NCBI RefSeq assembly: GCF_024298765.1
Contig: NZ_CP101210.1
Source of the DNA: Escherichia coli
GTDB lineage: Bacteria; Pseudomonadota; Gammaproteobacteria; Enterobacterales; Enterobacteriaceae
Reading direction: 5' to 3' (one strand)
Length of the DNA stretch: 64,000 nt
The number at the start of each line of letters is the position of its first letter. The first letter of the stretch is position 1. Shown piece by piece: positions 2,557 to 24,180 of this stretch. A program made the translations under genes and the position numbers. The notes under the pieces were generated by a model. That model did no database searches and was not told the origin of the DNA. It saw nothing but the letters and a program-made list of their open reading frames with translations.

Positions 2557-3297
2557 TTAACTGGCGGTGACGTTGATTTCTGCAACCGCAGCAAACTCAC
2601 CATTACCAGATACGACCGGAATGTTGACCTTGCCTGCAGCAACACCTTTCACGGTGATGGTCATACCACTGACCGACACGGTGGCTTTTGTTTTATCCGC
2701 AGACACCGCACGGAAGCTCTTGTCGGTTGCGCCATCCGGCTGGAATGCCACGGTCAGCGTGGTGCTCTGCCCTTTCACTACGGAAGCACTGGCGGGTGTC
2801 ACCGTCATGCCGGTCGTCGCCGTCACCGTGCTGCGATCTTCTGCCATCGACGGACGGCCCACATTGGTGACCTTCACCGTGCGGGTAATCACTTCCTTCG
2901 CCGTCACCGCCTTACCGATACTGCTGACCCAGCCACGGAACACATCGACCGTGCCGTTCGGGAAGCGGATTTTATAGGCACGGGTATCACCTTCATTAAA
3001 CCACGCCAGCAGCGCCTGCTGCCCCTGCTCTCCGGGCATCCACGCCAGCGTGAAGCTGGTATCTCCGGCAGATTTCTGCCCCTGCCCGGTCGCAGTCCAG
3101 TCTGCATCTTCATCATCGAGATAGCTGTCGTCATAGGACTCAGCGGTCAGTTCGCCGGGCGTCAGGTCTTTAACTTTTGCCAGACGCGACCAGTCAACGT
3201 CTGAAAGCGGGTTCGCATAAGGGTCACCGCTCCCCTTATAAACCCACAGGGTGGTTCCGGCACCTTTCACCGGTATTGCTGGATTTGGTACAGGCAT
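2557..3297 (-). CDS. V: major tail protein V
   Basis: ORF 2557..3327; internal start MPVPNP... gives 246 aa like lambda gpV; C-terminal Ig-like domain. Confidence 0.9.
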
Positions 3298-5869: not shown

Positions 5870-5879
5870 TGCTTGGGTT
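5870..5879. repeat. left junction direct repeat (att core copy) TGCTTGGGTT
   Basis: Identical 10-mer at 16754..16763; context atgcttgggtta vs gtgcttgggttt. Confidence 0.8.
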
Positions 5880-5955
5880 ACATGAGTCAAATATGAAAGG
5901 ATGTGAATGATTTGATTACGTTTTAGCTATAGAATTGAAATGGAAAATCCTTGAA

Positions 5956-5976
5956 TGCAATACAACGTGCAATACA
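5956..5976. repeat. GCAATACA direct repeats near left end (candidate arm-type integrase sites)
   Basis: tgcaatacaacgtgcaatacatgg; the same motif recurs at the right end. Confidence 0.45.
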
Positions 5977-6013
5977 TGGATGAAAACCATCACTCATTTA
6001 ACAAGAGGAATCT

Positions 6014-6919
6014 ATGCGCTCACCCAACAGAATGCATGAACGCTCAACATTTTATAAGTATATGTCGTTGAATACCGCGAAGATTGTTCTTGATTCATGC
6101 AGCCTTAGATGGAGTTCTCCGGTCCTATTTAATGACCCTTTTGATGTTCCAAGAGAAGTTATGCCTGGTATTAACGAAATTAATATTGGCAAAGCTTTAG
6201 CCCGCAAGTTAATAGCGGAGTTGATTACCCCCAGAGAAGACATACAAAATTTAAACCCTAGAATTAGAACAATGCTAAGTGATTTCCAAAAGTCATTTCC
6301 TTTAGGCATACCCGCAGGATTAATTGAAAGATTTCAAGAAATGGTAAACATTCCACCAGTTGGGATTGGCGCTCCTGCGGCAATACAAGAAATGAAAGAT
6401 ATCTGGCGAGGAATGCTTAATAACAGAAGGATTTTGTGTTTATCTGAGAGCCCTATAATCACTCCTATGTGGAATCACTATGCCGATAAATATAAAGGTA
6501 TAGTTATCGAATTTGATTGTGTAGACTTTCTGGATAGCGCTTGGTTAATAGCCAAACCTATGAAATACACAGATGAAATGCCTCTAACTCACACTGCTGA
6601 AGGGATGGCCGAGTTGCTTTTCATGCCAGACAATAAGTCAATTGAATATATCAATAATGAGATAATATTCATAAAAACAGAAGAATGGGCATATGAAAGA
6701 GAGTGGAGAATTTCAACCTACGCTAGGCCAAATAGCACTGGTCAATATAGCGACTTAAAATTTCACCCTTTTGAGTTAAAATCTGTAATACTTGGTCCTC
6801 TTTTTGATGCCAGCGAGTTCGATGAAGTCGCATCACTAGTTAAAATGTATCCAAGAGCGAAATTATTTAAAAGTTCATTTGGGAACGACAGAAAAATATC
6901 CATAGTACCACTACCTTAA
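6014..6919 (+). CDS. DUF2971-like hypothetical protein, AT-rich cargo
   Basis: 301 aa; motifs FYKY, LFNDPFD, EWAYEREWR recalled as DUF2971-like; codon usage visibly more AT-rich than neighbours; hairpin terminator follows. Confidence 0.6.
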   Translation: MRSPNRMHERSTFYKYMSLNTAKIVLDSCSLRWSSPVLFNDPFDVPREVMPGINEINIGKALARKLIAELITPREDIQNLNPRIRTMLSDFQKSFPLGIPAGLIERFQEMVNIPPVGIGAPAAIQEMKDIWRGMLNNRRILCLSESPIITPMWNHYADKYKGIVIEFDCVDFLDSAWLIAKPMKYTDEMPLTHTAEGMAELLFMPDNKSIEYINNEIIFIKTEEWAYEREWRISTYARPNSTGQYSDLKFHPFELKSVILGPLFDASEFDEVASLVKMYPRAKLFKSSFGNDRKISIVPLP

Positions 6920-7025
6920 AAGGTCAAATGCTTTTGACAAATAAAATCTATCGCCAGTTTTACTGGCGACTTTTAAGCAACAAAGAACCACCTAAGCACT
7001 CTTCCTACCTATGGTTTCATTTGTT

Positions 7026-7577
7026 TTAACTTCGCTGATTATCCTTGATATACCTTTCAGCCATATCTGGAATGTTATCTGAGATCTGGTAAGCTCGAAT
7101 AAATGCTTTACTGACCTCCATCTTAATGAAGTCCTGATACCGTTTTTCCATGCCAGGAAACTGTCGACAGATCGCAAGTGGAAGACTATCAATGATTGCT
7201 CCAACTTCCCCAGTTAATTTCGACAAGGCATAAGTCGCAAATGCAGTGTCAATTACCTCACCTGTTTCGCTGGCATTCTTCAGTTCCTGTGCGTCGGCCT
7301 GCGCACGCGTAAGTCGATGGCGTTCGTACTCAATAGTCCCTGGCTGGAGATCTGTCTCGCTGGCCTGCCGCAGTTCTTCAACTTCCCGGCGCAGCTTTTC
7401 GTTCTCAATTTCAGCATCCCTTTCGGCATACCATTTTATGACGGCGGCAGAGTCATAAAGCACCTCATTACCCTTGCCACCGCCTCGCAGAACGGGCATT
7501 CCCTGTTCCTGCCAGTTCTGAATGGTACGGATACTCGCACCGAAAATGTCAGCCAGCTGCTTTTTGTTGACTTCCAT
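7026..7577 (-). CDS. terminase small subunit Nu1-like; N-terminal ~100 aa identical to the prophage Nu1, C-terminal half divergent
   Basis: 183 aa; MEVNKKQLADIFGASIRTIQNWQEQG... identical to ORF 22397..22942 over the DNA-binding domain, then about half-identical. Confidence 0.85.
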   Translation of the reverse strand: MEVNKKQLADIFGASIRTIQNWQEQGMPVLRGGGKGNEVLYDSAAVIKWYAERDAEIENEKLRREVEELRQASETDLQPGTIEYERHRLTRAQADAQELKNASETGEVIDTAFATYALSKLTGEVGAIIDSLPLAICRQFPGMEKRYQDFIKMEVSKAFIRAYQISDNIPDMAERYIKDNQRS

Positions 7578-7599
7578 TGTTCATTCCACGGACAAAAAC

Positions 7600-7790
7600 A
7601 GAGAAAGGAAACGACAGAGGCCAAAAAGCTCGCTTTCAGCACCTGTCGTTTCCTTTCTTTTCAGGGGGTATTTTAAATAAAAACATTAAGTTACGACGAA
7701 GAAGAACGGAAACGCCTTAAACCGGAAAATTTTCATAAATAGCGAAAATCCGCGCGCCTGACGCCCCGTAGCCTGTCAGATCGCCGGAAA
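7600..7790 (-). other. cos-like site of the element: cosB conserved, cosN divergent
   Basis: Aligns base for base with prophage cos at ~22960..23150; the 12-nt cohesive-end sequence differs at 5 positions (aggtcgccgccc vs cgcctgacgccc on the + strand). Confidence 0.7.
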
Positions 7791-7822
7791 GGACCCGCCA
7801 GCCAGAGCGGGCCCTAATTTCA

Positions 7823-8206
7823 TCAACCAATCAGCTTATAGCGACCATCCCGTGCATTGCGGCGTACACGCTCAATCTTGAGGCATAGCGCCGCATCTGG
7901 CTTTTTTGGGACAGGTACGCGGCAATATTCAGAAGCGCGAGGAATATTATTTATCCAGTCGATCACTTCACTTAAATACCAGGCCTTACGCCCTTCCGTA
8001 ACCTGCACACGCTCCGGGAACTCTCCACTAGCCTCAAGGTTTAGCAGTGTACGCCGACTCAGGGTTGTAATTTCCATCACCTGATTCATATCAACAAGGC
8101 GCTCGCTTAAACACATTTTGTCAGCGATAGCTTTTAATTCCTCTACAGCTGGATTCGGGTACATCATTTCGGCAATTGGCTTAAGGTCATTGTAATCATT
8201 CTGCAT
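7823..8206 (-). CDS. AlpA-family DNA-binding protein with N-terminal extension
   Basis: 127 aa; C-terminal part (ITTLSRRTLLNLEASGEFPERVQVTEGRKAWYLSEVIDWI) resembles AlpA/excisionase-type wHTH. Confidence 0.6.
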   Translation of the reverse strand: MQNDYNDLKPIAEMMYPNPAVEELKAIADKMCLSERLVDMNQVMEITTLSRRTLLNLEASGEFPERVQVTEGRKAWYLSEVIDWINNIPRASEYCRVPVPKKPDAALCLKIERVRRNARDGRYKLIG

Positions 8207-8217
8207 TGTATCCCCCT

Positions 8218-8559
8218 TTACACACGAGCCAGCGGCTGAACAGAAATACCTGAGCCAACAAACGCTGCAATCTTTACTGACAGTTCTTTTACAGACTCAG
8301 GCCAGTTCAGAGCATCAACATTTAAGACACCTGTCTTATAGACCTGAGCCTGTGTTTTTTTCGCGGTGTCGATTTGTACAGCGGAAACATAAACCGCTTT
8401 ACCTACGCTCGAACCATCCCATACCACCAGTGCACCTGTTGCATCTTCCTGCATCAGTGGCGTAAATGCAGGAATTACCCCTTTATTAGCTGAAAATATC
8501 CCCAGCGTAGTCACCAGTGCTTCAGTGCCAGCCATGAGTTCAGTGTAATGAGTAGCCAT
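8218..8559 (-). CDS. head decoration protein, gpD family
   Basis: 113 aa; ...VVWDGSSVGKAVYVSAV...FVGSGISVQ parallels lambda gpD ...[17 protein letters not shown]...FAGTAISIV. Confidence 0.65.
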   Translation of the reverse strand: MATHYTELMAGTEALVTTLGIFSANKGVIPAFTPLMQEDATGALVVWDGSSVGKAVYVSAVQIDTAKKTQAQVYKTGVLNVDALNWPESVKELSVKIAAFVGSGISVQPLARV

Positions 8560-8568
8560 TGCTCCCCC

Positions 8569-9609
8569 TTAGCCAATGCGAACGGTAACAAAACGATTGA
8601 TGCGGGCCGGTATTGGCTGTGGTGCTGAATGTGTCTGCACATATTCAATAGCCGGATCACCAGGCACAATATAGTTTTTCGGTGCAAGTTCGGCTTTAGT
8701 CAGCCCCATTCGGATTAGCTCCGGATCCTGAATACCGCCATAGGCGACAATCCCCTGAAGAGCCGTATTGCCAAGCACCATCAAATCAGGATCAAGGAAA
8801 TGTTTTTCAGTTCCGTCCTCGTCGGTATAACGCCCGCTGTATACAACAATCGCAACATCGCCCATATACCCTTTAAAACTCACCGAATCACCAAGGTCTT
8901 TAAGGGCCGTTTCCAGTTCGGAATTAGAGCCACGACGGGTATCCAGAGCCTCTTTTATCGCTCTGAATGAACGGTATTTCTTCCATACATTACCGCCCAT
9001 AATGATGATATTAGTGACGCCCTCACTAAATTCTGCGTAGCTCTCAATATCATCATTTGGATCAAAAGTTTCTTTATCCTTACCTGACCACTCAGCACCG
9101 CCAGACTGAGTGATGATATTTTGTGGTTTAATATTCCAGTCCAGCTCATAACGTTCAATACCATCGCCCTCAATGATATTTTTCCCCGTTGTGATTGCCT
9201 GAACGGCAAGCCATTCAATACGTGCACGAATAGATTTAGCCTGATTTACAATCGCCTGTTTAACTTTAATATTACGCGCTCCAAAAGCATTGTATTGCTC
9301 AGGTGATACACCAGCAGGGCGCACAGCTAACTTATTTGGATCAATGCTGCTTTTCGGCTTCATATAGCCTGGACGAATTGTTTTTGATTCGTACCCTTCG
9401 TCACGTGAAACTTTACTACCCACCATAGGAGAACAAAACGCTGCAATTGGGATATTTGGATCGTCGATTGTATCAAGAATAATATCGCGCGATTCAAACA
9501 TTACCGAGCGAGTAAAAAACAAACTGGTAAACAACGCATTTAGTTGTTTTTGTACATCTACAGCATTAACCACCTGTACAAGCTGGGTAGGCGAATATAA
9601 ATCAACCAT
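8569..9609 (-). CDS. major capsid protein, gpE family, divergent paralog of prophage E
   Basis: ORF 8569..9783; likely start MVDLYSPTQL... after AAGAGG RBS; conserved blocks TQSGGAEWSGKDKETFDPNDDIESYA and TRRGSNSELETALKDLG match gpE. Confidence 0.8.
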   Translation of the reverse strand: MVDLYSPTQLVQVVNAVDVQKQLNALFTSLFFTRSVMFESRDIILDTIDDPNIPIAAFCSPMVGSKVSRDEGYESKTIRPGYMKPKSSIDPNKLAVRPAGVSPEQYNAFGARNIKVKQAIVNQAKSIRARIEWLAVQAITTGKNIIEGDGIERYELDWNIKPQNIITQSGGAEWSGKDKETFDPNDDIESYAEFSEGVTNIIIMGGNVWKKYRSFRAIKEALDTRRGSNSELETALKDLGDSVSFKGYMGDVAIVVYSGRYTDEDGTEKHFLDPDLMVLGNTALQGIVAYGGIQDPELIRMGLTKAELAPKNYIVPGDPAIEYVQTHSAPQPIPARINRFVTVRIG

Positions 9610-9826
9610 ACGCATCCTCTTTGCATTCATTAAAAATAATTGTGGATATATGCTATCACCGATATTTGTCATGCGAATACATGCAACCGAGTGCAATGTT
9701 GTATAAAGTTTTGGGATAACAACTTCAGCGCGGATAATTAGTGTTAATATCTTAACTCCCTTTGGTCGGGATTTATGTAGCATGCCGGAAAATTTATTTT
9801 TTTCCGGCCTTTTTTATTGGCAATAT

Positions 9827-10276
9827 TTAAAACGGAATATCATCTCCCCATTGCTCATTATCTCCCACTGGTGGATGGCTTCCTTGCTGATCTGCCTGTT
9901 GTTTTGCTCTGTTCAGTGCGTCAGTAGCCTGACCCTGTTGACCTTTTTTGCCGCCCGGTCGCACCGTTCGCGCACTGATTACGCTGTCTGCGATAACCTG
10001 CCAGCCCTGCCGCGTTTCACCGTTCTGTCCAGTCCACTGGCTCACCTGCATATTACCCGCCACGCTCAGGAGTTCGCCTTTGTGATGCTTTGCCAGCGCG
10101 TCGGCTTGTCTGCCAAACGCCAGGACAGATAACCACATCGTCGCCGTTCCGTCATCTGCCTGGCTGCATGGCAAAGATACCGCCATCCGTGCCAGTGTCA
10201 TGGGTGTTCCCTTGCTGGTATGTTTTACCTGTGGGTCGTCCACCAGCCGCCCGTAAGCTGCTATTTGCGCCGTCAT
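9827..10276 (-). CDS. SSB-like single-stranded DNA-binding protein
   Basis: 149 aa; OB-fold-like N-terminus and C-terminal acidic tail ending DDIPF, the SSB hallmark. Confidence 0.6.
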   Translation of the reverse strand: MTAQIAAYGRLVDDPQVKHTSKGTPMTLARMAVSLPCSQADDGTATMWLSVLAFGRQADALAKHHKGELLSVAGNMQVSQWTGQNGETRQGWQVIADSVISARTVRPGGKKGQQGQATDALNRAKQQADQQGSHPPVGDNEQWGDDIPF

Positions 10277-10287
10277 GCTGCCTGCTC

Positions 10288-10530
10288 TCAGGACTTAATA
10301 TTGATGGTTGTCACTTCCTCCGCTTCGGCAATCTCCCGTTCGGTCAGCGTGGCAAAGTTTGCAGCCGCCGTTGTCATGAATGCGCTTATCAGTTCGGGAT
10401 GTGCTTTCGCGTATCCTTCCCCGGCGTTGCGGTCTATTGCCTTAATCGCCACCCTTAGCCAGTGTTCAGCCATATCAAGGGCGCGGTAATGTGGCTTTAT
10501 ATGTTTGTTCAGTTTTCCTGATGTGTGCAT
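10288..10530 (-). CDS. hypothetical protein
   Basis: 80-aa ORF downstream of the iteron region, same strand as the replication genes. Confidence 0.4.
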   Translation of the reverse strand: MHTSGKLNKHIKPHYRALDMAEHWLRVAIKAIDRNAGEGYAKAHPELISAFMTTAAANFATLTEREIAEAEEVTTINIKS

Positions 10531-10569
10531 TTTTATTTTTACCCCCTCGTTTAAAAAGTTTTTTGTGCA

Positions 10570-10805
10570 CCACCACCTTGTCTACCTTGTCTACCTGATT
10601 AGTTATCAGGCCAGTAATGGCGCGGGTTTCAGGGAGGTAGACAGCCCCAAATAGCTGTCTACCTCATCTCTACCCGTCTCCTTACCTGTCTACAAAAATG
10701 GGTAGATAAGGTAGATAACAGGTAGACAGTGAAAAATAGTTATCTACCTGCATTAATGCATTGAAATAAAAGTATTTTATTTCAGTCAGGTAGACAAGGT
10801 AGATA
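10570..10805. repeat. iteron array GGTAGAYA (11 or more copies, both orientations): candidate replication origin
   Basis: ttgtctaccttgtctacc, ggtagacag, ctgtctacc, ggtagataaggtagataacaggtagacag, ttatctacc, ggtagacaaggtagataa; immediately downstream of the primase-helicase gene. Confidence 0.75.
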
Positions 10806-10819
10806 ACCATTGCCATTTT

Positions 10820-12571
10820 TTATAAAAACGCATCGCAATCATCAGTAGTCGTTGCGTTGGTCTGCGTGACTCCCTTAACTTTTCGCGTAATATATTCATA
10901 TCCGTAAACTTTCGCCGCTGACCTCATAGCCTTTCCGAACTCATTCACGCTCAAACATTTCCCCTTTCCTGTATATGCCATGAAGGCCATATAGACACGG
11001 TAAAGGCTGTTTCTGGTCGTGTACTTCACGGTGTCACCACCACCGCCCATCATTAGCCCACGAGCTTCCTCCAGAAACTCCAGCGCCGCGCAAAGCTCAA
11101 CAACCGGATCCGTTTGCTGCTTTATTGCCAGAGCTTCATCACCGTCACGCTGTTCCAGTAATAAAGCCCGTGCCTTTTCAGGGTCAGCAAAATTAGCCAG
11201 CAAGCGGCGGATAATTACGGGGATTTCTGCCGCTATCTTTTCCGGTAATTCCTTGTCTTTTTCGTCCTCCCTTACAATGTTGTCGAACCGGAAAATCACC
11301 CGACGGCGTGACACACCTCCGGCCCGTTCGGTAAAGATCATCGGGTCGTTATTGGTTGCCAGTACCACCGCCCTTATTATCGTCGTGAATCGCTTCTCAT
11401 ATTTCGGGTTAATTTCAACGGGATCGCCTCCCGTGATTTTCTTGATGCCCGTGCCTTCCCCCGTATATTTCGGCTGATCGGCAAGGACGATAAGACGACT
11501 CCCGACAACCTGCGCACGCCCTCCTGCATCATCGAGTGATGTCATCTCTGCGCTTACGGTGTTCTGTTTGCCAGCAAGCAGGGTGGCAATATGGGTAAAT
11601 GTACTCTTACCGCTTCCCCCGTCTCCGGTGGCCTCAATGAACATCTGCCAGTCGTACCGGTTCGCCATAATCATGTACAGCGCGGCACATATACGCATCA
11701 TCTTGCGCGGGTCTTTTCCGGCTGCGTGCTCAAGCCATTTATGAAAGTTTGGCGCGTTATCGCGGATGTTCTCCCCTGGTGCTGGTGGCGTGTACTCAAT
11801 GCCGTTGTGCGTGGTGATCCAGTTCTCCGGCGTGTGCGGGGAAAATTCCCCCGTTTTCAGGTCAAGCGCACCATTGGCGAACGGCAGCAAATCGCCGGAC
11901 GGCTCGCCCATTGGTTCGGCAATAACTTTTAACGCTTCAACGGCGTTATTGATCACGCGTTTGCTGAAAGTGGCCCTGTGCTCTGAATAGATCGCCACCA
12001 TTTCGCGGCTCAGCTCCATTGTGCTGATCGGACACCATACCCCGCCGCGCCATACGTGAACGATTTCACTTTCCGGATGCACACAAACGCCATCAAAGCG
12101 CTCGGCAAGCAGCTGCGCGCGCTCACTGTCTGCCATCTGTGAAAGTTGCGCCTTTTGCTTCGTCGGAAGATTAAGCACCAGGCTTTCCCCACGCTCGCAT
12201 TCCTCTTTGAGTCGCGGCAACTGGTCGGATAAATCCACTGGGCTGATGTCAGTAATCCCCGCGTATTCGTGTACGGTCTTCACTCCAGCCACAGCCAGTA
12301 ACGTAACAATCTGCGTCATGCTGTGCTCTGTGATATGTCCTGCGCGGTAAACACGCACACACTGACGATCTTCATCAATGATCCGGTAATCGGTGATGTT
12401 TTTCAGTTGCTCATCAGCCAACACGACAGGCGGCACATCGTCGGCGGCAATATGTTTACCCGCCCATTCCTGCCACTCTTTCGCATGGCTCCACGCATCA
12501 CTACCTGCAAAGATGATTATCTCTGTCAGTCTGTCGCGTGGCTGTTTTTTTAAGTTCGGTGCCAGTTTCAT
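10820..12571 (-). CDS. primase-helicase (P4 alpha / D5-type replication protein)
   Basis: 583 aa; Walker A GDGGSGKST in the C-terminal half; domain layout as in satellite and plasmid primase-helicases. Confidence 0.75.
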   Translation of the reverse strand: MKLAPNLKKQPRDRLTEIIIFAGSDAWSHAKEWQEWAGKHIAADDVPPVVLADEQLKNITDYRIIDEDRQCVRVYRAGHITEHSMTQIVTLLAVAGVKTVHEYAGITDISPVDLSDQLPRLKEECERGESLVLNLPTKQKAQLSQMADSERAQLLAERFDGVCVHPESEIVHVWRGGVWCPISTMELSREMVAIYSEHRATFSKRVINNAVEALKVIAEPMGEPSGDLLPFANGALDLKTGEFSPHTPENWITTHNGIEYTPPAPGENIRDNAPNFHKWLEHAAGKDPRKMMRICAALYMIMANRYDWQMFIEATGDGGSGKSTFTHIATLLAGKQNTVSAEMTSLDDAGGRAQVVGSRLIVLADQPKYTGEGTGIKKITGGDPVEINPKYEKRFTTIIRAVVLATNNDPMIFTERAGGVSRRRVIFRFDNIVREDEKDKELPEKIAAEIPVIIRRLLANFADPEKARALLLEQRDGDEALAIKQQTDPVVELCAALEFLEEARGLMMGGGGDTVKYTTRNSLYRVYMAFMAYTGKGKCLSVNEFGKAMRSAAKVYGYEYITRKVKGVTQTNATTTDDCDAFL

Positions 12572-12867
12572 TTTTTGCCCCTGAATGCGTTAATCATGCT
12601 TTTCATTTTCTGGATGTTTCCCCGCGCTTTTTCCCTGCTGATGGGCTTACTGCGGGGTGCGGCATATACCAGGGAAAAATCACGCCGGAACTGATAAACA
12701 GGCATCACGCAGTCATAGCTATACCCCTCACGACGGTAAGTGATGCGCCGTTCTGCCACGCCTTTAATCGTTACCGTGCCGCCGTATTTATCGCGGTAAA
12801 TATCGCCGTTCATAAATTCAGGCCGAGCGGGGCCGCTGGCAATAAAGCCAGAATTTTTCATTTCCAT
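12568..12867 (-). CDS. hypothetical protein
   Basis: 99-aa ORF, abuts the primase-helicase start. Confidence 0.4.
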   Translation of the reverse strand: MEMKNSGFIASGPARPEFMNGDIYRDKYGGTVTIKGVAERRITYRREGYSYDCVMPVYQFRRDFSLVYAAPRSKPISREKARGNIQKMKSMINAFRGKK

Positions 12868-12884
12868 ATTATTTATTCCTCGAC

Positions 12885-13106
12885 TTAACTCGACTTATTT
12901 GATAGCTGGGCACTATTTATTGCGTCATTGAGTTTTTCTGCTGCTTCATCAATAAGTGACAACAGGCCATAAGCAATATTTGCATCTTCATTGTCATTTA
13001 TGCAATCAAGCCACATATTTAATATTGCTTTTGCTGAATTATTTAAAGTTAATGAACTTTCTGCACATGCTAACAATTTAAAAAAGACTTCCCGTTCTGT
13101 ATTCAT
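12885..13106 (-). CDS. hypothetical protein
   Basis: 73-aa ORF in a tightly packed small-gene operon. Confidence 0.4.
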   Translation of the reverse strand: MNTEREVFFKLLACAESSLTLNNSAKAILNMWLDCINDNEDANIAYGLLSLIDEAAEKLNDAINSAQLSNKSS

Positions 13107-13298
13107 TTAATCCCCCACCAGCTTACTTTCTTCCTCAATCAAAAAACTAGCGACACTTCCCGAAAGACGCGCCAGTAGGCTCGCCAGTGCGGATATATCA
13201 GCATCTGTAATTTTGTTCGGGTATACCTCAAGAAGGCGGCAAATAATTTCTGTCTGGTGCGCACGTTCAGCGGCTTCGTGTAATGTGATTTCCTGCAT
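13107..13298 (-). CDS. hypothetical protein
   Basis: 63-aa ORF; its stop abuts the next ORF. Confidence 0.4.
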   Translation of the reverse strand: MQEITLHEAAERAHQTEIICRLLEVYPNKITDADISALASLLARLSGSVASFLIEEESKLVGD

Positions 13299-13483
13299 TA
13301 ATGCACCTCTTTTAATTCATACACTGCTGAAATAATGACTTGTGATAAGCCATATTCTGATGATTCGCTTCTCACCGCAGCAATAGCCGTCTGAACATTA
13401 ACAGCCTTCACATTCTGAGCGATACCAATTGTGTGGCCTATTGGGTTAACAGCTCGGGCAAATACACGGAAGGTTTTAAGCAT
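13298..13483 (-). CDS. hypothetical protein
   Basis: 61-aa ORF, first gene of the leftward operon. Confidence 0.4.
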   Translation of the reverse strand: MLKTFRVFARAVNPIGHTIGIAQNVKAVNVQTAIAAVRSESSEYGLSQVIISAVYELKEVH

Positions 13484-13863
13484 GACTCACTCCCTGGCGG
13501 ATTTTTGCAGCGAATACAGCAACACAACCGGACGGGCAACGGCTACGCGCTTCGCGTTCCGTCCAGGCGGTTACGTGGATGATTTGAGATTCTCCGGCAC
13601 TCAGTGCCAGAAAACGCCACACAAAGGCCGTTTGTGTGTGTACAAGGTGTGGTATATGATTTACAGCAACCATAACGGCTCCTAGTTTACGTTGTTGGTT
13701 AGACGCCCCGTATGTGTTCCCAGCACTGCGGGGCGTTGCTCTTTGTATTTCAACAATCCTTTCGGTGTGTTTCATGTTATGAGCGCATGAAACACACGTC
13801 AAGGCTTTTTGTATTTCTTTTTTTGTGTATACTGAAACACACCGATGATTAGGAGTTTCAGAA

Positions 13864-14169
13864 ATGGCAACGGCTAACAAAAACGCAAAATCACAACTGA
13901 CAACTGTCAGAGTCCCACTAGATGTTATGCAAGGGATGGAATCCGTTAAGCTGGACGGTGAAAGCAATGCCGGATTTATCGTAACCGCCATGCGCGGTGA
14001 AATCGCCCGCCGCCAGGCAGAAGGAAGCGGAGAAAATCCCCTCGTGTCTTCACTGGATGCCTTAGCTAAGGTCGAACAAATCGGCATCAAGGCAGCGGAG
14101 GAAATCGGGCAACTCGTAGCCGTCGCTCGTGAAGAACTCCAGCGGCGTAAAGCCAAAGAATCTGAATAA
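13864..14169 (+). CDS. putative ribbon-helix-helix transcriptional regulator
   Basis: 101 aa; AGGAG RBS; TVRVPLDVMQGMESV...NAGFIVTAMRGEI fits a beta-strand plus two helices; divergent from the small-gene operon. Confidence 0.5.
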   Translation: MATANKNAKSQLTTVRVPLDVMQGMESVKLDGESNAGFIVTAMRGEIARRQAEGSGENPLVSSLDALAKVEQIGIKAAEEIGQLVAVAREELQRRKAKESE

Positions 14170-14519
14170 TTAGTATCAGCGCCGTGATGTGAGTAACTAC
14201 GGCGCATTGCTATGTAAATACTGGCAATAAACAGAAAAGGTAGTTCTACTCCGAATAATTTTATCTGACACTACTCCTGAACTAACATGCGCTTATCTTA
14301 CAGGATATAAATATAAATCCATAAAATCACGATTAAATAAAGTCGCTCCAAACATAAACCACACCCAACGCTTAACAAGATAGCAACAAACAGGTAAATA
14401 ACTTGCAGAAATATTTATCGCAAGGATTATCATTATTAATGACAAATCACTTTACCAAGTCATTCCCCTCTCTTATCATAAAGAGAAAGTAATAAATAAG
14501 TTAAGGGAGTTAGAATGCT

Positions 14520-15056
14520 ATGAATCTAAAAAAAATAGCCACAAACACAAAAAACAAGATAACAGAAACATTTAATAAACTTATATTAGAGGCATCTAAA
14601 ACCCCCACACAAGATGAAATTAAAATACTTGAGAGAAGGAGTAAGAAGTTTAATTACTCCTTTTTCTCATACGCAGTCACAGGAGCTATAATAGTTTTTT
14701 GCTCTCAACCATTAATTAAATACGCAAACCCAATACTTATTTTATTGAGTGGTCTGTTACTGTCTATCATCATTATCATTCTCAGAATGATTTATATTTC
14801 ACAAGCGAATGCATCATGGACAACCAAAAAACGCTCACATGTACTAGTTCATTTTCTTTCTGCATGTTTCATAGCATCAACATTGACGTTGCTATATCAG
14901 GCTTACGATAATAACATCACACACAAATTGTACTGTAAAAATATACAACAACTTATTGAAAAAAGGATAAAAACAGAAAAAAACATCAGCATATTCAGTG
15001 GGATGCAATGCACCCCGGTATATGATTACTCTTTATTTGGATTTAATCTCTTATAA
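14520..15056 (+). CDS. hypothetical membrane protein, AT-rich cargo
   Basis: 178 aa; three hydrophobic segments (AVTGAIIVFCSQPLI, ILILLSGLLLSIIIIIL, VLVHFLSACFIASTLTLL); GGGAG RBS; AT-rich. Confidence 0.55.
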   Translation: MNLKKIATNTKNKITETFNKLILEASKTPTQDEIKILERRSKKFNYSFFSYAVTGAIIVFCSQPLIKYANPILILLSGLLLSIIIIILRMIYISQANASWTTKKRSHVLVHFLSACFIASTLTLLYQAYDNNITHKLYCKNIQQLIEKRIKTEKNISIFSGMQCTPVYDYSLFGFNLL

Positions 15057-15067
15057 AGAATGTTATT

Positions 15068-15101
15068 ACTGATTTGAGTACAAATTCTCAAATCAGTAAT
15101 T
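15068..15101. terminator. perfect 13-bp inverted repeat hairpin between convergent genes
   Basis: ttactgatttgag-N8-ctcaaatcagtaa. Confidence 0.5.
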
Positions 15102-15125
15102 CATAATATTTTATTCTGAGATAAT

Positions 15126-15353
15126 TTAAACTACCCACTCACCTCGAATCCATGCCTGCACTTCTGAAAGACGATATGCAACAGCAGTGGAACCAATCTT
15201 GATCCGCTTAGGAAATTTTCCTTCCTTCTCCAGCTTCCAGCGTGTGCTGTTCGCAAGAGTGGTTAGCTCCCGACATTCTTTCTCACGGATCATTCGGTCA
15301 ATGTTAGGAATGTACTCCAGACCCTTTTTATCAACAATTGCCATTTTTTTCAT
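15126..15353 (-). CDS. alpA: AlpA-family regulator/excisionase-like protein
   Basis: ORF 15126..15362; ...LTTLANSTRWKLEKEGKFPKRIKIGSTAVAYRLSEVQAWI typical of AlpA; directly follows int. Confidence 0.65.
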   Translation of the reverse strand: MKKMAIVDKKGLEYIPNIDRMIREKECRELTTLANSTRWKLEKEGKFPKRIKIGSTAVAYRLSEVQAWIRGEWVV

Positions 15354-15354
15354 G

Positions 15355-16590
15355 TTAACCAACCTTTTGTTTGAGGATTGTCACTTTTGAATCAGCACCT
15401 GCGATGCTATTGAGATATGTAGTCCAGAGTTCCAGAGCATCCAGTTTTTTAGCCATAAACTTACTCCGGTTGTAAACACCTGCCACGCCAGGTAGCGCAT
15501 GGCCTAACAGTTGTTCTACTACATAAAATTCAACACCGAGATCACTTAGATGAGTAGATAGCGTTCTTCTAAGGTCGTGTAGTGACCATTGTTTTTCATG
15601 GCCCAAACGTTTACCGATTTTCCCCCCAATCTTGCTTACGCTTTCTCTAATTCGCAGACTTCCCAGCACATAACCAGTATGTTTTGTCTCTTCGTGAACA
15701 TCCGTTACCCACTGTCGTAGAATTTCAGGTACTGGTCTGACGATTTCAACACCAGTTTTTGAGTGATCTTTTGGTACAGTCCAAACCCAACTTTCGAGAT
15801 CCCATTCGCTCCATTCTGATAATCGGGCTTCACTCATTCGACATCCAAATACTGTACAAAGCACAAACATTTTTCGCGTGTATTCAGACATTAGTTTTAA
15901 ATCAGGCTCGACAAAAATTGCCTTCCAGAGCTGGCCGAGTTCGGCTTCATCCAGAACCCGATCCCGCTTACCTGCAATCTGCCCCACATCACTCATGCGC
16001 AAATCCTTTAAAGCATCACACGTCGCGTACTGGCGTACCCGACAAAAACGAAGAGCTAATTTAGTGTCAGAAAAAACATACGCCGCCATAACTGGTGCAT
16101 TACGTTTAATTCGGTCAAAACAGTCCAGCCATTCATATAGGTGAGTGTCATTTACGGGCAAATGACCGATATAGGGAAAGATATGCTTTCGAAATCTGCC
16201 AAGCGTTACAGCATGAGTTTTACGACGCACCTTACAGTAATTTTCATACCAGTAATTTAGTGCATCCTCCACTGTAACTGGCTTTAAGCGTTCTTCAGCC
16301 TGAATCTTAATCTGGATACGCGGATCACGTTTGTCAGCCAACCAACCACGGCACTCGTCGCGCTTTTCCCTTGCCTGTTTGAGTGACATATCAGGATATT
16401 TACCCAACGTTAGCCAGACCGGAGCAGCCCGGCCACCTGCTAACCTGTAGAAGAAAACAAAGCTCACAGCCCCTTTAGTACTCACACGAATAGAAAGCCC
16501 CTTTCCATCAGCAATGGTGATCTGCTTTTCTCTGGGTTTCCCCAGATATCCTTTAAGCGCTTTGTCGCTCAGTTTGTTCTCGCCAGCCAT
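15355..16590 (-). CDS. int: tyrosine integrase, P4-like
   Basis: ORF 15355..16641; probable start MAGENKLSDKALKG...; C-terminal catalytic region with HDLRRT and GH motifs. Confidence 0.85.
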   Translation of the reverse strand: MAGENKLSDKALKGYLGKPREKQITIADGKGLSIRVSTKGAVSFVFFYRLAGGRAAPVWLTLGKYPDMSLKQAREKRDECRGWLADKRDPRIQIKIQAEERLKPVTVEDALNYWYENYCKVRRKTHAVTLGRFRKHIFPYIGHLPVNDTHLYEWLDCFDRIKRNAPVMAAYVFSDTKLALRFCRVRQYATCDALKDLRMSDVGQIAGKRDRVLDEAELGQLWKAIFVEPDLKLMSEYTRKMFVLCTVFGCRMSEARLSEWSEWDLESWVWTVPKDHSKTGVEIVRPVPEILRQWVTDVHEETKHTGYVLGSLRIRESVSKIGGKIGKRLGHEKQWSLHDLRRTLSTHLSDLGVEFYVVEQLLGHALPGVAGVYNRSKFMAKKLDALELWTTYLNSIAGADSKVTILKQKVG

Positions 16591-16605
16591 TTTTAGCCCC
16601 AAAAA

Positions 16606-16640
16606 GCAATACAAGCTGCAATACAGAGATGATTGCAACA
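16606..16640. repeat. GCAATACA repeats near right end (candidate arm-type integrase sites)
   Basis: aagcaatacaagctgcaatacagagatgattgcaacaca between int start and the right junction. Confidence 0.45.
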
Positions 16641-16752
16641 CACAGATAACGAGGAAAATTCAGTGAAAGCACCAGATAAACTTATTCTTTATTATCAAAA
16701 GATTAAGTGTAAAAACCAGCAACTACACGAAAGCCTCAGAAAGCCATGCTAA

Positions 16753-16998
16753 GTGCTTGGGTTTGACATATCCCGGCGTAAATTCAGAGGTGGAGCCGCC
16801 ACGGGAACGGATAACCTCACCGGAAACAATCGGCGAAACGTACAGCGCCATGTTTACCAGTCCCGGAATTTGTGAGAGATAGACTTTCTCCGTAGTGAAG
16901 GGATAGCTCTCACGGAAAAAGAGACGCAGAAACAGCGGATCAAACTTAAATTTCTGCTCATTTGCCGCCAGCAGCTGGGCGGTTGTGTACATCGACAT
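16753..16998 (-). pseudogene. E: major capsid protein E, N-terminal ~90 codons; frame runs into the insertion and stops at 16723
   Basis: ORF 16723..17025: MSMYTTAQLLAANEQKFKFDPLF...GYVKPKH then LAWLSEAFV* from element DNA. Confidence 0.9.
16754..16763. repeat. right junction direct repeat (att core copy) TGCTTGGGTT
   Basis: Identical 10-mer at 5870..5879. Confidence 0.8.
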
Positions 16999-23886: not shown

Positions 23887-24180
23887 ATGAAAAAAATGTT
23901 GTTTTCTGCCGCTCTGGCAATGCTTATTACAGGATGTGCTCAACAGACGTTTACTGTTGGAAACAAACCGACAGCAGTAACACCAAAGGAAACCATCACC
24001 CATCATTTCTTCGTTTCGGGAATTGGACAGGAGAAAACTGTTGATGCAGCCAAAATTTGTGGCGGCGCAGAAAATGTTGTTAAAACAGAAACCCAGCAAA
24101 CATTCGTAAATGGATTTCTCGGTTTTATTACTTTAGGCATTTATACTCCGCTGGAAGCGCGTGTGTATTGCTCACAATAA
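23887..24180 (+). CDS. bor: Bor lipoprotein (serum resistance)
   Basis: ORF 23839..24180; start MKKMLFSAALAMLITGCAQQTFTV... with lipobox; lambda Bor. Confidence 0.9.
   Translation: MKKMLFSAALAMLITGCAQQTFTVGNKPTAVTPKETITHHFFVSGIGQEKTVDAAKICGGAENVVKTETQQTFVNGFLGFITLGIYTPLEARVYCSQ

What the first reader, a model, noticed from the sequence alone, without database searches (positions are those of the whole stretch)
14520..15056. AT-rich cargo gene encoding a small three-helix membrane protein between the integrase module and the regulator
A 178-aa protein with three predicted transmembrane segments, on the strand opposite to int and alpA, in markedly AT-rich DNA, flanked by a perfect 13-bp inverted-repeat terminator. 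Small membrane proteins at such positions in prophages and satellites are often superinfection-exclusion or abortive-infection effectors. No family recognised.
Basis: inference. Interest (0 to 1): 0.5.

Follow-up and report, generated by a model that had tools for sequence, protein, structure and literature searches.

The report
Orphan three-helix membrane gene in satellite
This is a real, conserved, self-contained gene for a small inner-membrane protein of unknown family, carried in a swap-prone cargo slot of a known kind of phage satellite; it most likely shields the cell from incoming phages, but nothing here tests that directly.

Summary
Window 14520-15056 (+) encodes a 178-aa protein with three hydrophobic helices. 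Its DNA is 31% G+C against 49.6% for the window. It converges on alpA/int and is followed by a perfect 14-bp hairpin.

An open frame this long is not chance, and the gene is under purifying selection. It belongs to a small, unnamed family that matches nothing in Pfam, NCBIfam, PHROGs, PADLOC, PDB or BFVD.

The carrier is a described element: a helper-embedded PICI satellite (relative of Eco567.11capE) inserted in the lambda-like capsid gene E.

The gene lies in a cassette just downstream of alpA. In sister elements with the same integrase, that cassette holds a TIR protein (PADLOC candidate PDC-S35) or a DUF2971 protein instead. Distant family members sit in the same slot of other capsid-gene satellites. 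Others are opposite-strand morons in prophage head-gene clusters.

The conserved residues lie on the predicted periplasmic face, including an invariant cysteine pair.

The gene anatomy closely mirrors P22 sieA, but there is no homology.

Best reading (about 0.38): an inner-membrane protein expressed in the lysogen that blocks phage genome entry. This rests on context and analogy only.

The parts
14520..15056 (+). CDS for the 178-aa three-helix membrane protein (RefSeq 'hypothetical protein'; WP_001049528 in strain 104 differs from the window protein by one residue).
   Evidence: ORF call and translation. Chance excluded. dN/dS about 0.1-0.2 outside codons 81-120. Homologues at 24-36% identity in other genera. 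AlphaFold2 model with pLDDT 85.
14451..14479 (+). Candidate sigma-70 promoter (TTTACC, 17 nt spacer, TATCAT), 40 nt upstream of the start codon. It is followed by an AGGGAG Shine-Dalgarno sequence at 14504-14509.
   Evidence: Consensus scan, 9 of 12 matches; this is not evidence of function. The Shine-Dalgarno sequence was read.
15065..15100 (.). Perfect 14-bp inverted repeat with an 8-nt loop between the convergent ORF178 and alpA genes. Probably a bidirectional terminator or insulator.
   Evidence: z = -6.1; z = -3.8. A near-identical stem (ACTGATTTGAG/CTCAAATCAGT) follows the 32%-identical homologue in L051, and a different hairpin follows the homologue in L050.
14179..14205 (+). G+C-rich hairpin (GCGCCGT / ACGGCGC) just after the ylcI-like gene. 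It separates that gene from the AT-rich ORF178 block.
   Evidence: Sequence. It aligns with the conserved hairpin family.
13864..14169 (+). YlcI/YnfO-family small protein (putative regulator), upstream of ORF178 on the same strand.
   Evidence: NCBIfam NF041551, 2.7e-17. In L050 and L051 a 59-61-aa YlcI-like gene lies only 66 nt and 29 nt upstream of the ORF178 homologue.
13518..15133 (.). Swappable cassette containing the ylcI-like gene and ORF178. Sister satellites carry other cargo here.
   Evidence: Pairwise blastn breakpoints. Replacements are SWIM + DUF2971 in L018/L019 and a 59-aa gene + TIR in L020/L021.
15126..15353 (-). alpA (AlpA-family regulator/excisionase), convergent with ORF178.
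   Evidence: RefSeq annotation of the 99.9%-identical locus.
15355..16590 (-). Tyrosine integrase of the satellite.
5870..16763 (.). The whole carrier: a helper-embedded PICI satellite inserted in the lambda-like major capsid gene E. It is bounded by a 10-bp direct repeat, TGCTTGGGTT, at 5870-5879 and 16754-16763.
   Evidence: Repeat search and translation of the two E fragments. Annotations. Described as Eco567.11capE in strain NRG857c (PMC10111431).

Best explanation
ORF178 is a self-contained 'moron' (own promoter, gene, hairpin) carried in the cargo slot next to alpA of a helper-embedded PICI satellite.

It encodes a three-helix inner-membrane protein. The lysine-rich N-terminus and loop 2 are predicted to face the cytoplasm. 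The short QPLxKYANP turn and a roughly 50-residue helical C-terminal domain, which holds an invariant and probably disulfide-bonded cysteine pair, are predicted to face the periplasm.

The most likely role is superinfection exclusion. The protein would be made from the quiescent satellite in the lysogen and would interfere, from the periplasmic face of the inner membrane, with genome entry by incoming phages. That would protect the cell and the helper-satellite composite. P22 SieA works this way.

Shown here: the gene is real and conserved, the three helices, the conservation pattern, the cargo slot, and the recurrence in mobile elements. Inferred: topology, disulfide, expression in the lysogen, and any anti-phage activity.
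For: 1. The gene is real and under selection. Chance is excluded. dN/dS is about 0.2 (window vs L003) and about 0.1 (window vs L002, codons 1-80). Homologues of 148-175 aa exist in Enterobacterales and Pseudomonas.

2. The slot is a cargo hotspot. 174 E. coli genomes carry this int/alpA, but only 66-67 carry ORF178. Homology breaks at 15134 and 13517. The alternatives in the slot are a TIR protein matching PADLOC PDC-S35 at 7e-67 and a DUF2971 protein.

3. Highly divergent alleles occupy the same slot. In L005/L050 and L051, int is 86-89% identical, alpA 92-95% and the satellite capsid protein 85-86%, yet the membrane protein is only 32-35% identical. SieA shows the same pattern, with three sequence types less than 30% identical (PMC10883804).

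4. Other members are opposite-strand morons between the Mu-F-like and scaffold/capsid genes of prophages. One lies directly downstream of a type XI retron RT-protease. In 12 other family contexts the gene is 3-24 G+C points below its flanks.

5. Conservation is concentrated on the predicted outside face. Mean major-residue frequency is 0.77 for loop 1 and 0.50 for the C-terminus, with C139 and C164 invariant. It is 0.25-0.29 for the N-terminus and loop 2. Charge distribution fits N-in/C-out: loop 2 has 0.25 K+R per residue and almost no acidic residues, while the C-terminus is neutral.

6. The gene anatomy is nearly the same as P22 sieA. SieA is 164 aa with three hydrophobic segments, 33.7% G+C in a 47.1% genome, opposite to the late genes, with its own promoter and next to small repressor genes. 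SieA alone blocks DNA injection.

7. The gene lies on the same strand as, and downstream of, the YlcI-like putative regulator. In L050/L051 the gap is only 29-66 nt. This recalls exclusion genes co-transcribed with repressors, such as lambda cI-rexAB (established knowledge).
Against: There is no sequence or fold similarity to any known exclusion or defence protein. PHROGs, PADLOC, Pfam and NCBIfam are negative. hhalign probability is 0.1-0.2% against P22 SieA and SieB. Foldseek against PDB and BFVD is negative, and AFDB50 returns only the protein's own uncharacterised family.

No homologue was found in 50,697 sequenced phage genomes. Some family members lie in ordinary-looking chromosomal neighbourhoods.

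Truncated or frameshifted variants are fairly common among database copies (P0006-P0008), so the gene is dispensable in some lineages.

Expression, localisation, topology and phenotype are all untested. Guilt by association with a hotspot is weak evidence for any particular mechanism.
Confidence: 0.38

Rival explanations
1. Abortive-infection effector. The protein perturbs or depolarises the inner membrane once a phage infects, killing or arresting the cell before progeny are made.
For: It is a small multi-helix membrane protein in a defence-type cargo slot. One homologue lies immediately downstream of a type XI retron RT-protease in a Pseudomonas island that also holds Fic and DUF4238 genes. 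Membrane effectors are common in abortive systems (established knowledge).
Against: The gene is solitary in almost every context, with no sensor partner. PADLOC lists retron XI as a single-gene system, and the association was seen once in about 12 contexts. There are no consistent matches to SLATT, 2TM or other effector families; only single-member Pfam hits at E 0.03-0.05. The conserved surface is predicted to be periplasmic, not cytoplasmic.
Confidence: 0.15
2. Orphan immunity protein against a pore-forming bacteriocin or another membrane-targeting toxin. It would neutralise the toxin within the inner membrane.
For: Size (148-178 aa), three helices, AT-richness and a convergent arrangement with a shared hairpin all resemble immunity genes of pore-forming colicins (established knowledge). 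The conserved face is periplasmic, where such toxins arrive. One Pseudomonas homologue lies about 3 kb from an S-type pyocin gene, and one locus has an Imm42 gene nearby.
Against: No member matches any Pfam colicin-immunity family. No bacteriocin gene is adjacent in the window or in most loci. The nearby pyocin is a nuclease type with its own small immunity gene. The only plasmid hit is one weak, unannotated match.
Confidence: 0.12
3. Lysogenic-conversion or host-fitness factor unrelated to phages, for example envelope stress tolerance or host colonisation.
For: It has moron architecture, and the helper prophage already carries iss/bor. Many carriers are avian, ExPEC or AIEC isolates. Some homologues are in chromosomal contexts.
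Against: The strain distribution may simply reflect lineage. The alternatives in the same slot are defence-type proteins. There is no similarity to any known envelope or virulence factor.
Confidence: 0.15
4. Satellite life-cycle function, for example modulating lysis timing (holin or antiholin-like) or anchoring a satellite process at the membrane.
For: It is a small membrane protein in a phage-dependent element. One distant member gives a weak PHROG holin/antiholin hit (E 0.029).
Against: Only about 38% of E. coli satellites with this integrase carry it, and unrelated cargo replaces it in the rest. It runs opposite to the alpA operon and to helper late transcription. Family members occur outside phage elements and away from lysis genes. 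The predicted N-in/C-out topology is the opposite of class I holins (established knowledge).
Confidence: 0.1
5. Decaying or functionless passenger gene.
For: Truncated variants exist at homopolymer tracts (P0006-P0008). A compensated frameshift patch distinguishes the alleles.
Against: Purifying selection operates outside the patch. Motifs and the cysteine pair are conserved across genera at 24-36% identity. The reading frame is restored in the patch, which stays hydrophobic.
Confidence: 0.05

Closest known systems
P22 SieA (superinfection exclusion protein of Salmonella phage P22)
   Same: Both are about 164-178 aa with three hydrophobic helices and no signal peptide. Both are AT-rich relative to the carrier (33.7 vs 47.1% for sieA; 31.1 vs 44.7-49.6% here). 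Both lie on the strand opposite to the neighbouring operon, apparently with their own promoter, and next to small regulator genes. Both occur as several sequence types less than 30-36% identical at the same locus.
   Different: There is no detectable homology (hhalign probability 0.1%; no PHROG hit). The helices are placed differently: SieA has TM1 at the extreme N-terminus and a roughly 50-residue loop, whereas ORF178 has a 43-residue N-terminal tail and a 50-residue C-terminal domain with two invariant cysteines. The carrier is a satellite, not a phage. Activity is untested.
Eco567.11capE and other helper-embedded PICIs at site E:Phage_cap_E:80 (Tommasini, Mageeney and Williams 2023, PMC10111431)
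   Same: The carrier in the window is this kind of element. It has the same integrase/alpA, the same insertion point in the lambda-like capsid gene, a 10-bp core repeat, its own capsid and decoration genes, and primase and ssb. The type element in strain NRG857c carries an 88-89%-identical allele of ORF178 (WP_001049527).
   Different: The paper places this position in its 'Bro zone' of domain-swapping DNA-binding proteins and immunity RNAs. It does not mention this gene, and the word 'membrane' does not occur in it. ORF178 is not a Bro-type protein.
Defence-gene hotspots of phage satellites and prophages (P4/P2 hotspots; PICI-encoded immune systems)
   Same: A fixed position between conserved genes holds alternative cargo in otherwise near-identical elements. 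Two of the alternatives here are TIR (PDC-S35) and DUF2971 proteins. The satellite's far end is a second such slot, holding DUF262+HEPN, TIR, or a PDC-S31-like protein in the window.
   Different: ORF178 itself matches no known or candidate defence model. The hotspot next to alpA in helper-embedded PICIs does not appear in the papers I could search.
Immunity proteins of pore-forming colicins
   Same: Both are small multi-helix inner-membrane proteins encoded in AT-rich DNA, convergent with the neighbouring gene across a shared hairpin (general knowledge).
   Different: No Pfam match for any of 17 family members. No bacteriocin gene is adjacent.

Membership tests
P22 SieA family | Sequence or profile homology to SieA. 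| tested here: not met
   hhalign of the family profile A2 against P22 SieA gives probability 0.1%. No PHROG exclusion family is hit by ORF178 or by 10 homologues.
P22 SieA family | Inner-membrane protein of about 160 aa with three transmembrane helices. | tested here: met
   Prediction only: hydropathy, AlphaFold2 helices and charge distribution. Localisation was not tested.
P22 SieA family | Alone sufficient to block DNA injection by superinfecting phages. | not testable with these tools
   Needs plating, potassium-efflux and DNA-entry assays.
Helper-embedded PICI, site E:Phage_cap_E:80 (the carrier element) | Integrase plus alpA at one end; inserted inside the lambda-like capsid gene E of a prophage; short core repeat at both ends; primase/ssb and own capsid genes. 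| tested here: met
   10-bp repeat TGCTTGGGTT; E split after ...GYVKPKH; the type element is locus L002.
Known or candidate anti-phage defence systems (PADLOC-DB v2) | Match to a PADLOC protein model. | tested here: not met
   No families at E up to 1 for ORF178. None for homologues P0009, P0017 and P0020.
Pore-forming colicin immunity proteins | Match to a Pfam colicin-immunity family, and adjacency to a colicin gene. | tested here: not met
   No such Pfam hit for any of 17 members. No bacteriocin gene in the satellite.
Holins / antiholins | Match to a holin family and location in a lysis cassette. | tested here: not met
   Only one weak hit (E 0.029) for one distant member. The neighbours are alpA and a ylcI-like gene.
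Type XI retron (RT-protease) accessory gene | Consistent adjacency to the RT-protease gene. | tested here: not met
   Adjacent in one Pseudomonas locus only. Absent from the window and from the other contexts.
SLATT / 2TM abortive-infection effectors | Match to Pfam DUF4231 or Saf_2TM, and association with a nucleotide-signal sensor. | tested here: not met
   Single-member hits at E 0.03-0.05 only. No partner gene.

The most novel reading that the evidence does not exclude
ORF178 founds an unrecognised family of single-gene inner-membrane exclusion proteins. Its conserved periplasmic face (the QPLxKYANP turn plus a disulfide-locked C-terminal helical domain) would block genome entry by siphophages. 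The slot next to alpA in capsid-gene-embedded satellites would then be a new defence hotspot, where this gene alternates, in very divergent allelic types, with TIR and DUF2971 systems. In that case the satellite guards the very prophage it parasitises.
Probability: 0.3. Interest if true: 0.5.

Novelty: new member of a known kind. Interest (0 to 1): 0.3.

Why it matters
If the protein does exclude phages, it adds a new, non-homologous family to the short list of single-protein blocks to DNA entry at the inner membrane. It would also mark a second defence hotspot in helper-embedded satellites, an element type described only in 2023.

That would give a simple one-gene handle on how siphophage genomes cross the inner membrane, through escape mutants in tape-measure or ejection proteins. 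It would also show a satellite protecting its own helper prophage.

If it does not, this is one more conserved hypothetical moron. The value here is then limited to having tied it to a defined family, topology and mobile context.

Tried and rejected
Searches that gave nothing usable:
- Pfam on ORF178 and on all 17 aligned members gave only compositional noise, such as DUF443 at 1e-3.
- NCBIfam, PHROGs and PADLOC on ORF178 and 10 homologues.
- PDB sequence search with the family profile.
- Foldseek against PDB and BFVD, with no hit at E <= 0.001. AFDB50 returned only the protein's own uncharacterised family.
- tblastn of ORF178 and of prophage member P0020 against 50,697 phage genomes gave no match.
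- tblastn against plasmids gave one weak, unannotated Pantoea hit.
- Rfam on the satellite and on 13560-14560 found nothing credible. In particular there was no C4/isrK match, which the HE-PICI paper reports for some relatives.
- A literature search for the RefSeq accessions and locus tags found no papers.
- hhalign against P22 SieA and SieB was negative.

Readings considered and rejected:
- A chance ORF in AT-rich DNA.
- A retron accessory gene (one adjacency only).
- A Bro-network protein, which is what the literature expects at this position; ORF178 is a membrane protein with no DNA-binding domain.
- Positive selection as the reading of the hypervariable patch at codons 81-120 (dN about equal to dS). 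The alignment shows part of it is a compensated +1/-1 frameshift, so about 29 nt are read in a different frame in the two alleles.

Full report
**The observation**

An AGGGAG Shine-Dalgarno sequence lies 10 nt upstream. G+C is 31.1% in the ORF, against 49.6% for the window and 44.7% for the surrounding satellite. The AT-rich block runs from about 14200 to 15150.

AT-rich DNA is rich in stop codons, so an open frame of this length is very unlikely by chance. P(no stop) is 9e-7, and none of 2000 shuffles reached 178 codons.

Hydropathy gives three segments at about 44-66, 71-93 and 106-128. The inverted repeat after the stop codon is a perfect 14-bp stem (15065-15078 / 15087-15100) with an 8-nt loop. 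Its fold is far more stable than shuffles, z = -6.1. It lies between two convergent genes, so a bidirectional terminator or insulator is a reasonable but unproven reading. It has few G-C pairs and poor T tracts.

**The carrier is a known element**

RefSeq copies that are 99.9% identical show the neighbourhood:
- integrase and alpA on one side;
- a YlcI/YnfO-family gene, an icd-like gene, DUF4222, primase and ssb on the other;
- then the element's own major capsid and decoration genes, an HTH gene and variable end cargo.

The whole block interrupts a lambda-like major capsid gene E. In the window the element runs from 5870 to 16763. It is bounded by the 10-bp repeat TGCTTGGGTT, and E is split after ...GYVKPKH.

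This is the helper-embedded PICI described by Tommasini, Mageeney and Williams (PMC10111431). Their type element, Eco567.11capE of strain NRG857c, is my locus L002. It carries an 88-89%-identical allele of ORF178. The paper does not discuss this gene. It assigns the position to a 'Bro zone' of DNA-binding proteins and immunity RNAs, and ORF178 is neither.

**The protein belongs to a small unnamed family**

Curated libraries are silent: Pfam, NCBIfam, PHROGs and PADLOC. An exhaustive HMMER search of 1.84 billion cluster representatives found ten further credible relatives plus one spurious repeat-protein hit. These relatives are 24-36% identical, and most are full length at 148-175 aa. A profile search added a few more.

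The relatives share these motifs:
- QPLxK(Y/F)xNP between helices 1 and 2;
- a glycine in helix 2, and YR at its end;
- in the C-terminal 40 residues, H-D-x-x-C-x-x-L-Q ... E-K-x-x-x-x-F-x-x-M/L-x-C.
- P71, C139, Q143, F159 and C164 are invariant.

An AlphaFold2 model built on this alignment is confident (pLDDT 85) and all-helical. Its helices span 3-26, 31-66, 71-94, 100-147 and 152-161. It resembles nothing in the PDB or BFVD. In AFDB50 it resembles only its own uncharacterised relatives.

**Selection and allelic variation**

Among E. coli alleles, dN/dS is about 0.2 (window vs L003) and about 0.1 (window vs L002, codons 1-80). Codons 81-120 differ heavily between the two main alleles, with dN about equal to dS. 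The nucleotide alignment shows a +1 insertion and a -1 deletion about 29 nt apart. Part of the patch is therefore the same DNA read in another frame, and it still gives a hydrophobic helix. This shows that the start of helix 3 and loop 2 tolerate almost any sequence. It is not good evidence for positive selection.

Some database copies are truncated at A-runs (P0006-P0008).

**Topology (inferred)**

Loop 2 has 0.25 K+R per residue and almost no acidic residues across the family. The N-terminal tail is net positive, and the C-terminal domain is charge-neutral. By the positive-inside rule this gives N-in/C-out.

Conservation is highest in the predicted periplasmic turn (0.77) and the C-terminal domain (0.50). 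It is lowest in the predicted cytoplasmic N-terminus and loop 2 (0.25-0.29). Three members have no cysteines other than the invariant pair. That fits a periplasmic disulfide. So the part of the protein that matters appears to face outward.

**The slot is a cargo hotspot**

The int/alpA module is present in 174-178 of 5426 complete E. coli genomes, but ORF178 is present in only 66-67.

In L019 the replication genes are 96.9% identical to the window and int/alpA 99.4%, yet 13518-15133 is replaced. The replacements are a SWIM protein plus a DUF2971 protein (L018, L019), or a 59-aa YlcI-like gene plus a TIR protein (L020, L021). The TIR protein matches PADLOC candidate system PDC-S35 at 7e-67.

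The far end of the satellite is a second variable slot. It holds DUF262+HEPN in strains 104 and NRG857c, a TIR protein in Rb-23, and in the window a PDC-S31-like protein at 6014-6919 (2e-32).

**Where the relatives live**

- Three more capsid-gene satellites (L005/L050 and L051) carry a 32-35%-identical homologue in the same slot. Their int, alpA and capsid proteins are 85-95% identical to the window's. In both forms a YlcI-like gene lies 29-66 nt upstream on the same strand and a hairpin follows the stop. In L051 the stem is nearly the same sequence as in the window.
- P0016, P0020 and L052 are opposite-strand inserts between the Mu-F-like head gene and the scaffold/capsid genes of siphophage prophages.
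- P0017 lies directly after a type XI retron RT-protease (PADLOC 1e-174) in Pseudomonas mandelii.
- P0011 lies beside an integrase fragment and umuDC.
- P0010, P0021 and P0022 are in chromosomal islands.
- In every one of these 12 other contexts the gene is 3-24 G+C points below its surroundings.
- No sequenced phage genome carries a homologue.

**Mechanism**

The best-supported reading is a lysogen-expressed inner-membrane protein that blocks genome entry by incoming phages.

The closest worked example is P22 SieA, which I pulled from the P22 record. It is 164 aa with three hydrophobic segments and 33.7% G+C in a 47.1% genome. It lies opposite to the late genes, has its own promoter and sits beside the small repressors Mnt and Arc. 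SieA alone blocks DNA injection. It exists as three sequence types less than 30% identical at one locus (PMC10883804).

ORF178 shares all of that anatomy but none of the sequence: hhalign probability is 0.1%. It may therefore work like SieA, but it is not a member of that family.

The gene is convergent with int/alpA and with helper late transcription. It should therefore be expressed in the quiescent state and overridden by antisense read-through late in induction. This is inference.

I give this reading about 0.38. The rivals and my estimates are:
- abortive infection, 0.15;
- orphan bacteriocin immunity, 0.12;
- phage-unrelated host fitness factor, 0.15;
- satellite life-cycle role, 0.10;
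- junk, 0.05.

**Verdict**

The carrier and the general phenomenon (cargo morons and defence hotspots in satellites) are known. The protein family is not named anywhere I could search.

This is a reasonable candidate for a simple wet-lab test, not a surprise. Interest 0.3.

Noticed in passing
window 5870-16763: The whole region is a 10.9-kb helper-embedded PICI satellite inserted in the lambda-like major capsid gene E of a prophage. It is bounded by a 10-bp direct repeat, TGCTTGGGTT, and carries its own complete capsid (8569-9609) and decoration (8218-8559) genes. It is a known element type, a relative of Eco567.11capE.
   Followed up: yes
window 13518-15133 versus L018/L019 2644-4500 and L020/L021: The cassette next to alpA is exchanged between otherwise near-identical satellites. 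The three forms seen are ylcI-like + ORF178, SWIM + DUF2971, and a 59-aa YlcI-like gene + TIR protein (PADLOC PDC-S35, 7e-67). This looks like an undescribed defence hotspot.
   Followed up: partly
window 6014-6919 (+) and 7026-7577 (-): The end cargo of the satellite differs from sister elements, which carry DUF262+HEPN or a TIR protein. Here a 301-aa protein matches PADLOC candidate PDC-S31 (2e-32). A 183-aa protein matches the N-terminus of mad1 (1e-11).
   Followed up: partly
window 13702-13750 (+) and 14179-14205 (+); also L005 7645-7692, L019 about 2830-2880, L020 about 3215-3260: A roughly 50-nt G+C-rich hairpin with a T-rich tail (GACGCCCCG...CGGGGCGTTGCTCTTT) is the only sequence conserved across all cassette variants. 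It shows some compensatory stem changes. A related hairpin follows the ylcI-like gene. Neither has an Rfam match. They could be terminators or parts of an RNA-based immunity system like P4 CI/seqA.
   Followed up: partly
window about 14825-14860 (codons about 103-114 of ORF178): The two main E. coli alleles differ by a +1 insertion and a -1 deletion about 29 nt apart. The same DNA is therefore read in two frames, and both give a hydrophobic helix.
   Followed up: yes
database proteins P0006, P0007, P0008: Truncated variants of ORF178 (35, 20 and 3 member sequences) exist; two of the three (P0006, P0007) break at A-runs inside the gene. They could be real pseudogenes, slippage-based switching or assembly errors.
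   Followed up: no
L004 6303-7952 and 8001-8447 (Pseudomonas mandelii): A family member lies 48 nt downstream of, and co-oriented with, a type XI retron RT-protease. PADLOC treats that as a single-gene system. The same island holds Fic and DUF4238 genes.
   Followed up: partly
window 14293-14445 (-): A 50-aa TTG-start ORF with a hydrophobic N-terminal half lies in the AT-rich spacer upstream of ORF178. The spacer is more conserved among E. coli alleles (0.6-1.3% different) than the ORF itself. The ORF is probably chance, but it was not examined.
   Followed up: no
window about 23887-24180 (+): The helper prophage carries an iss/bor-type serum-survival lipoprotein gene next to its lysis genes. 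This is by position relative to the annotated 99.9%-identical locus L001.
   Followed up: no
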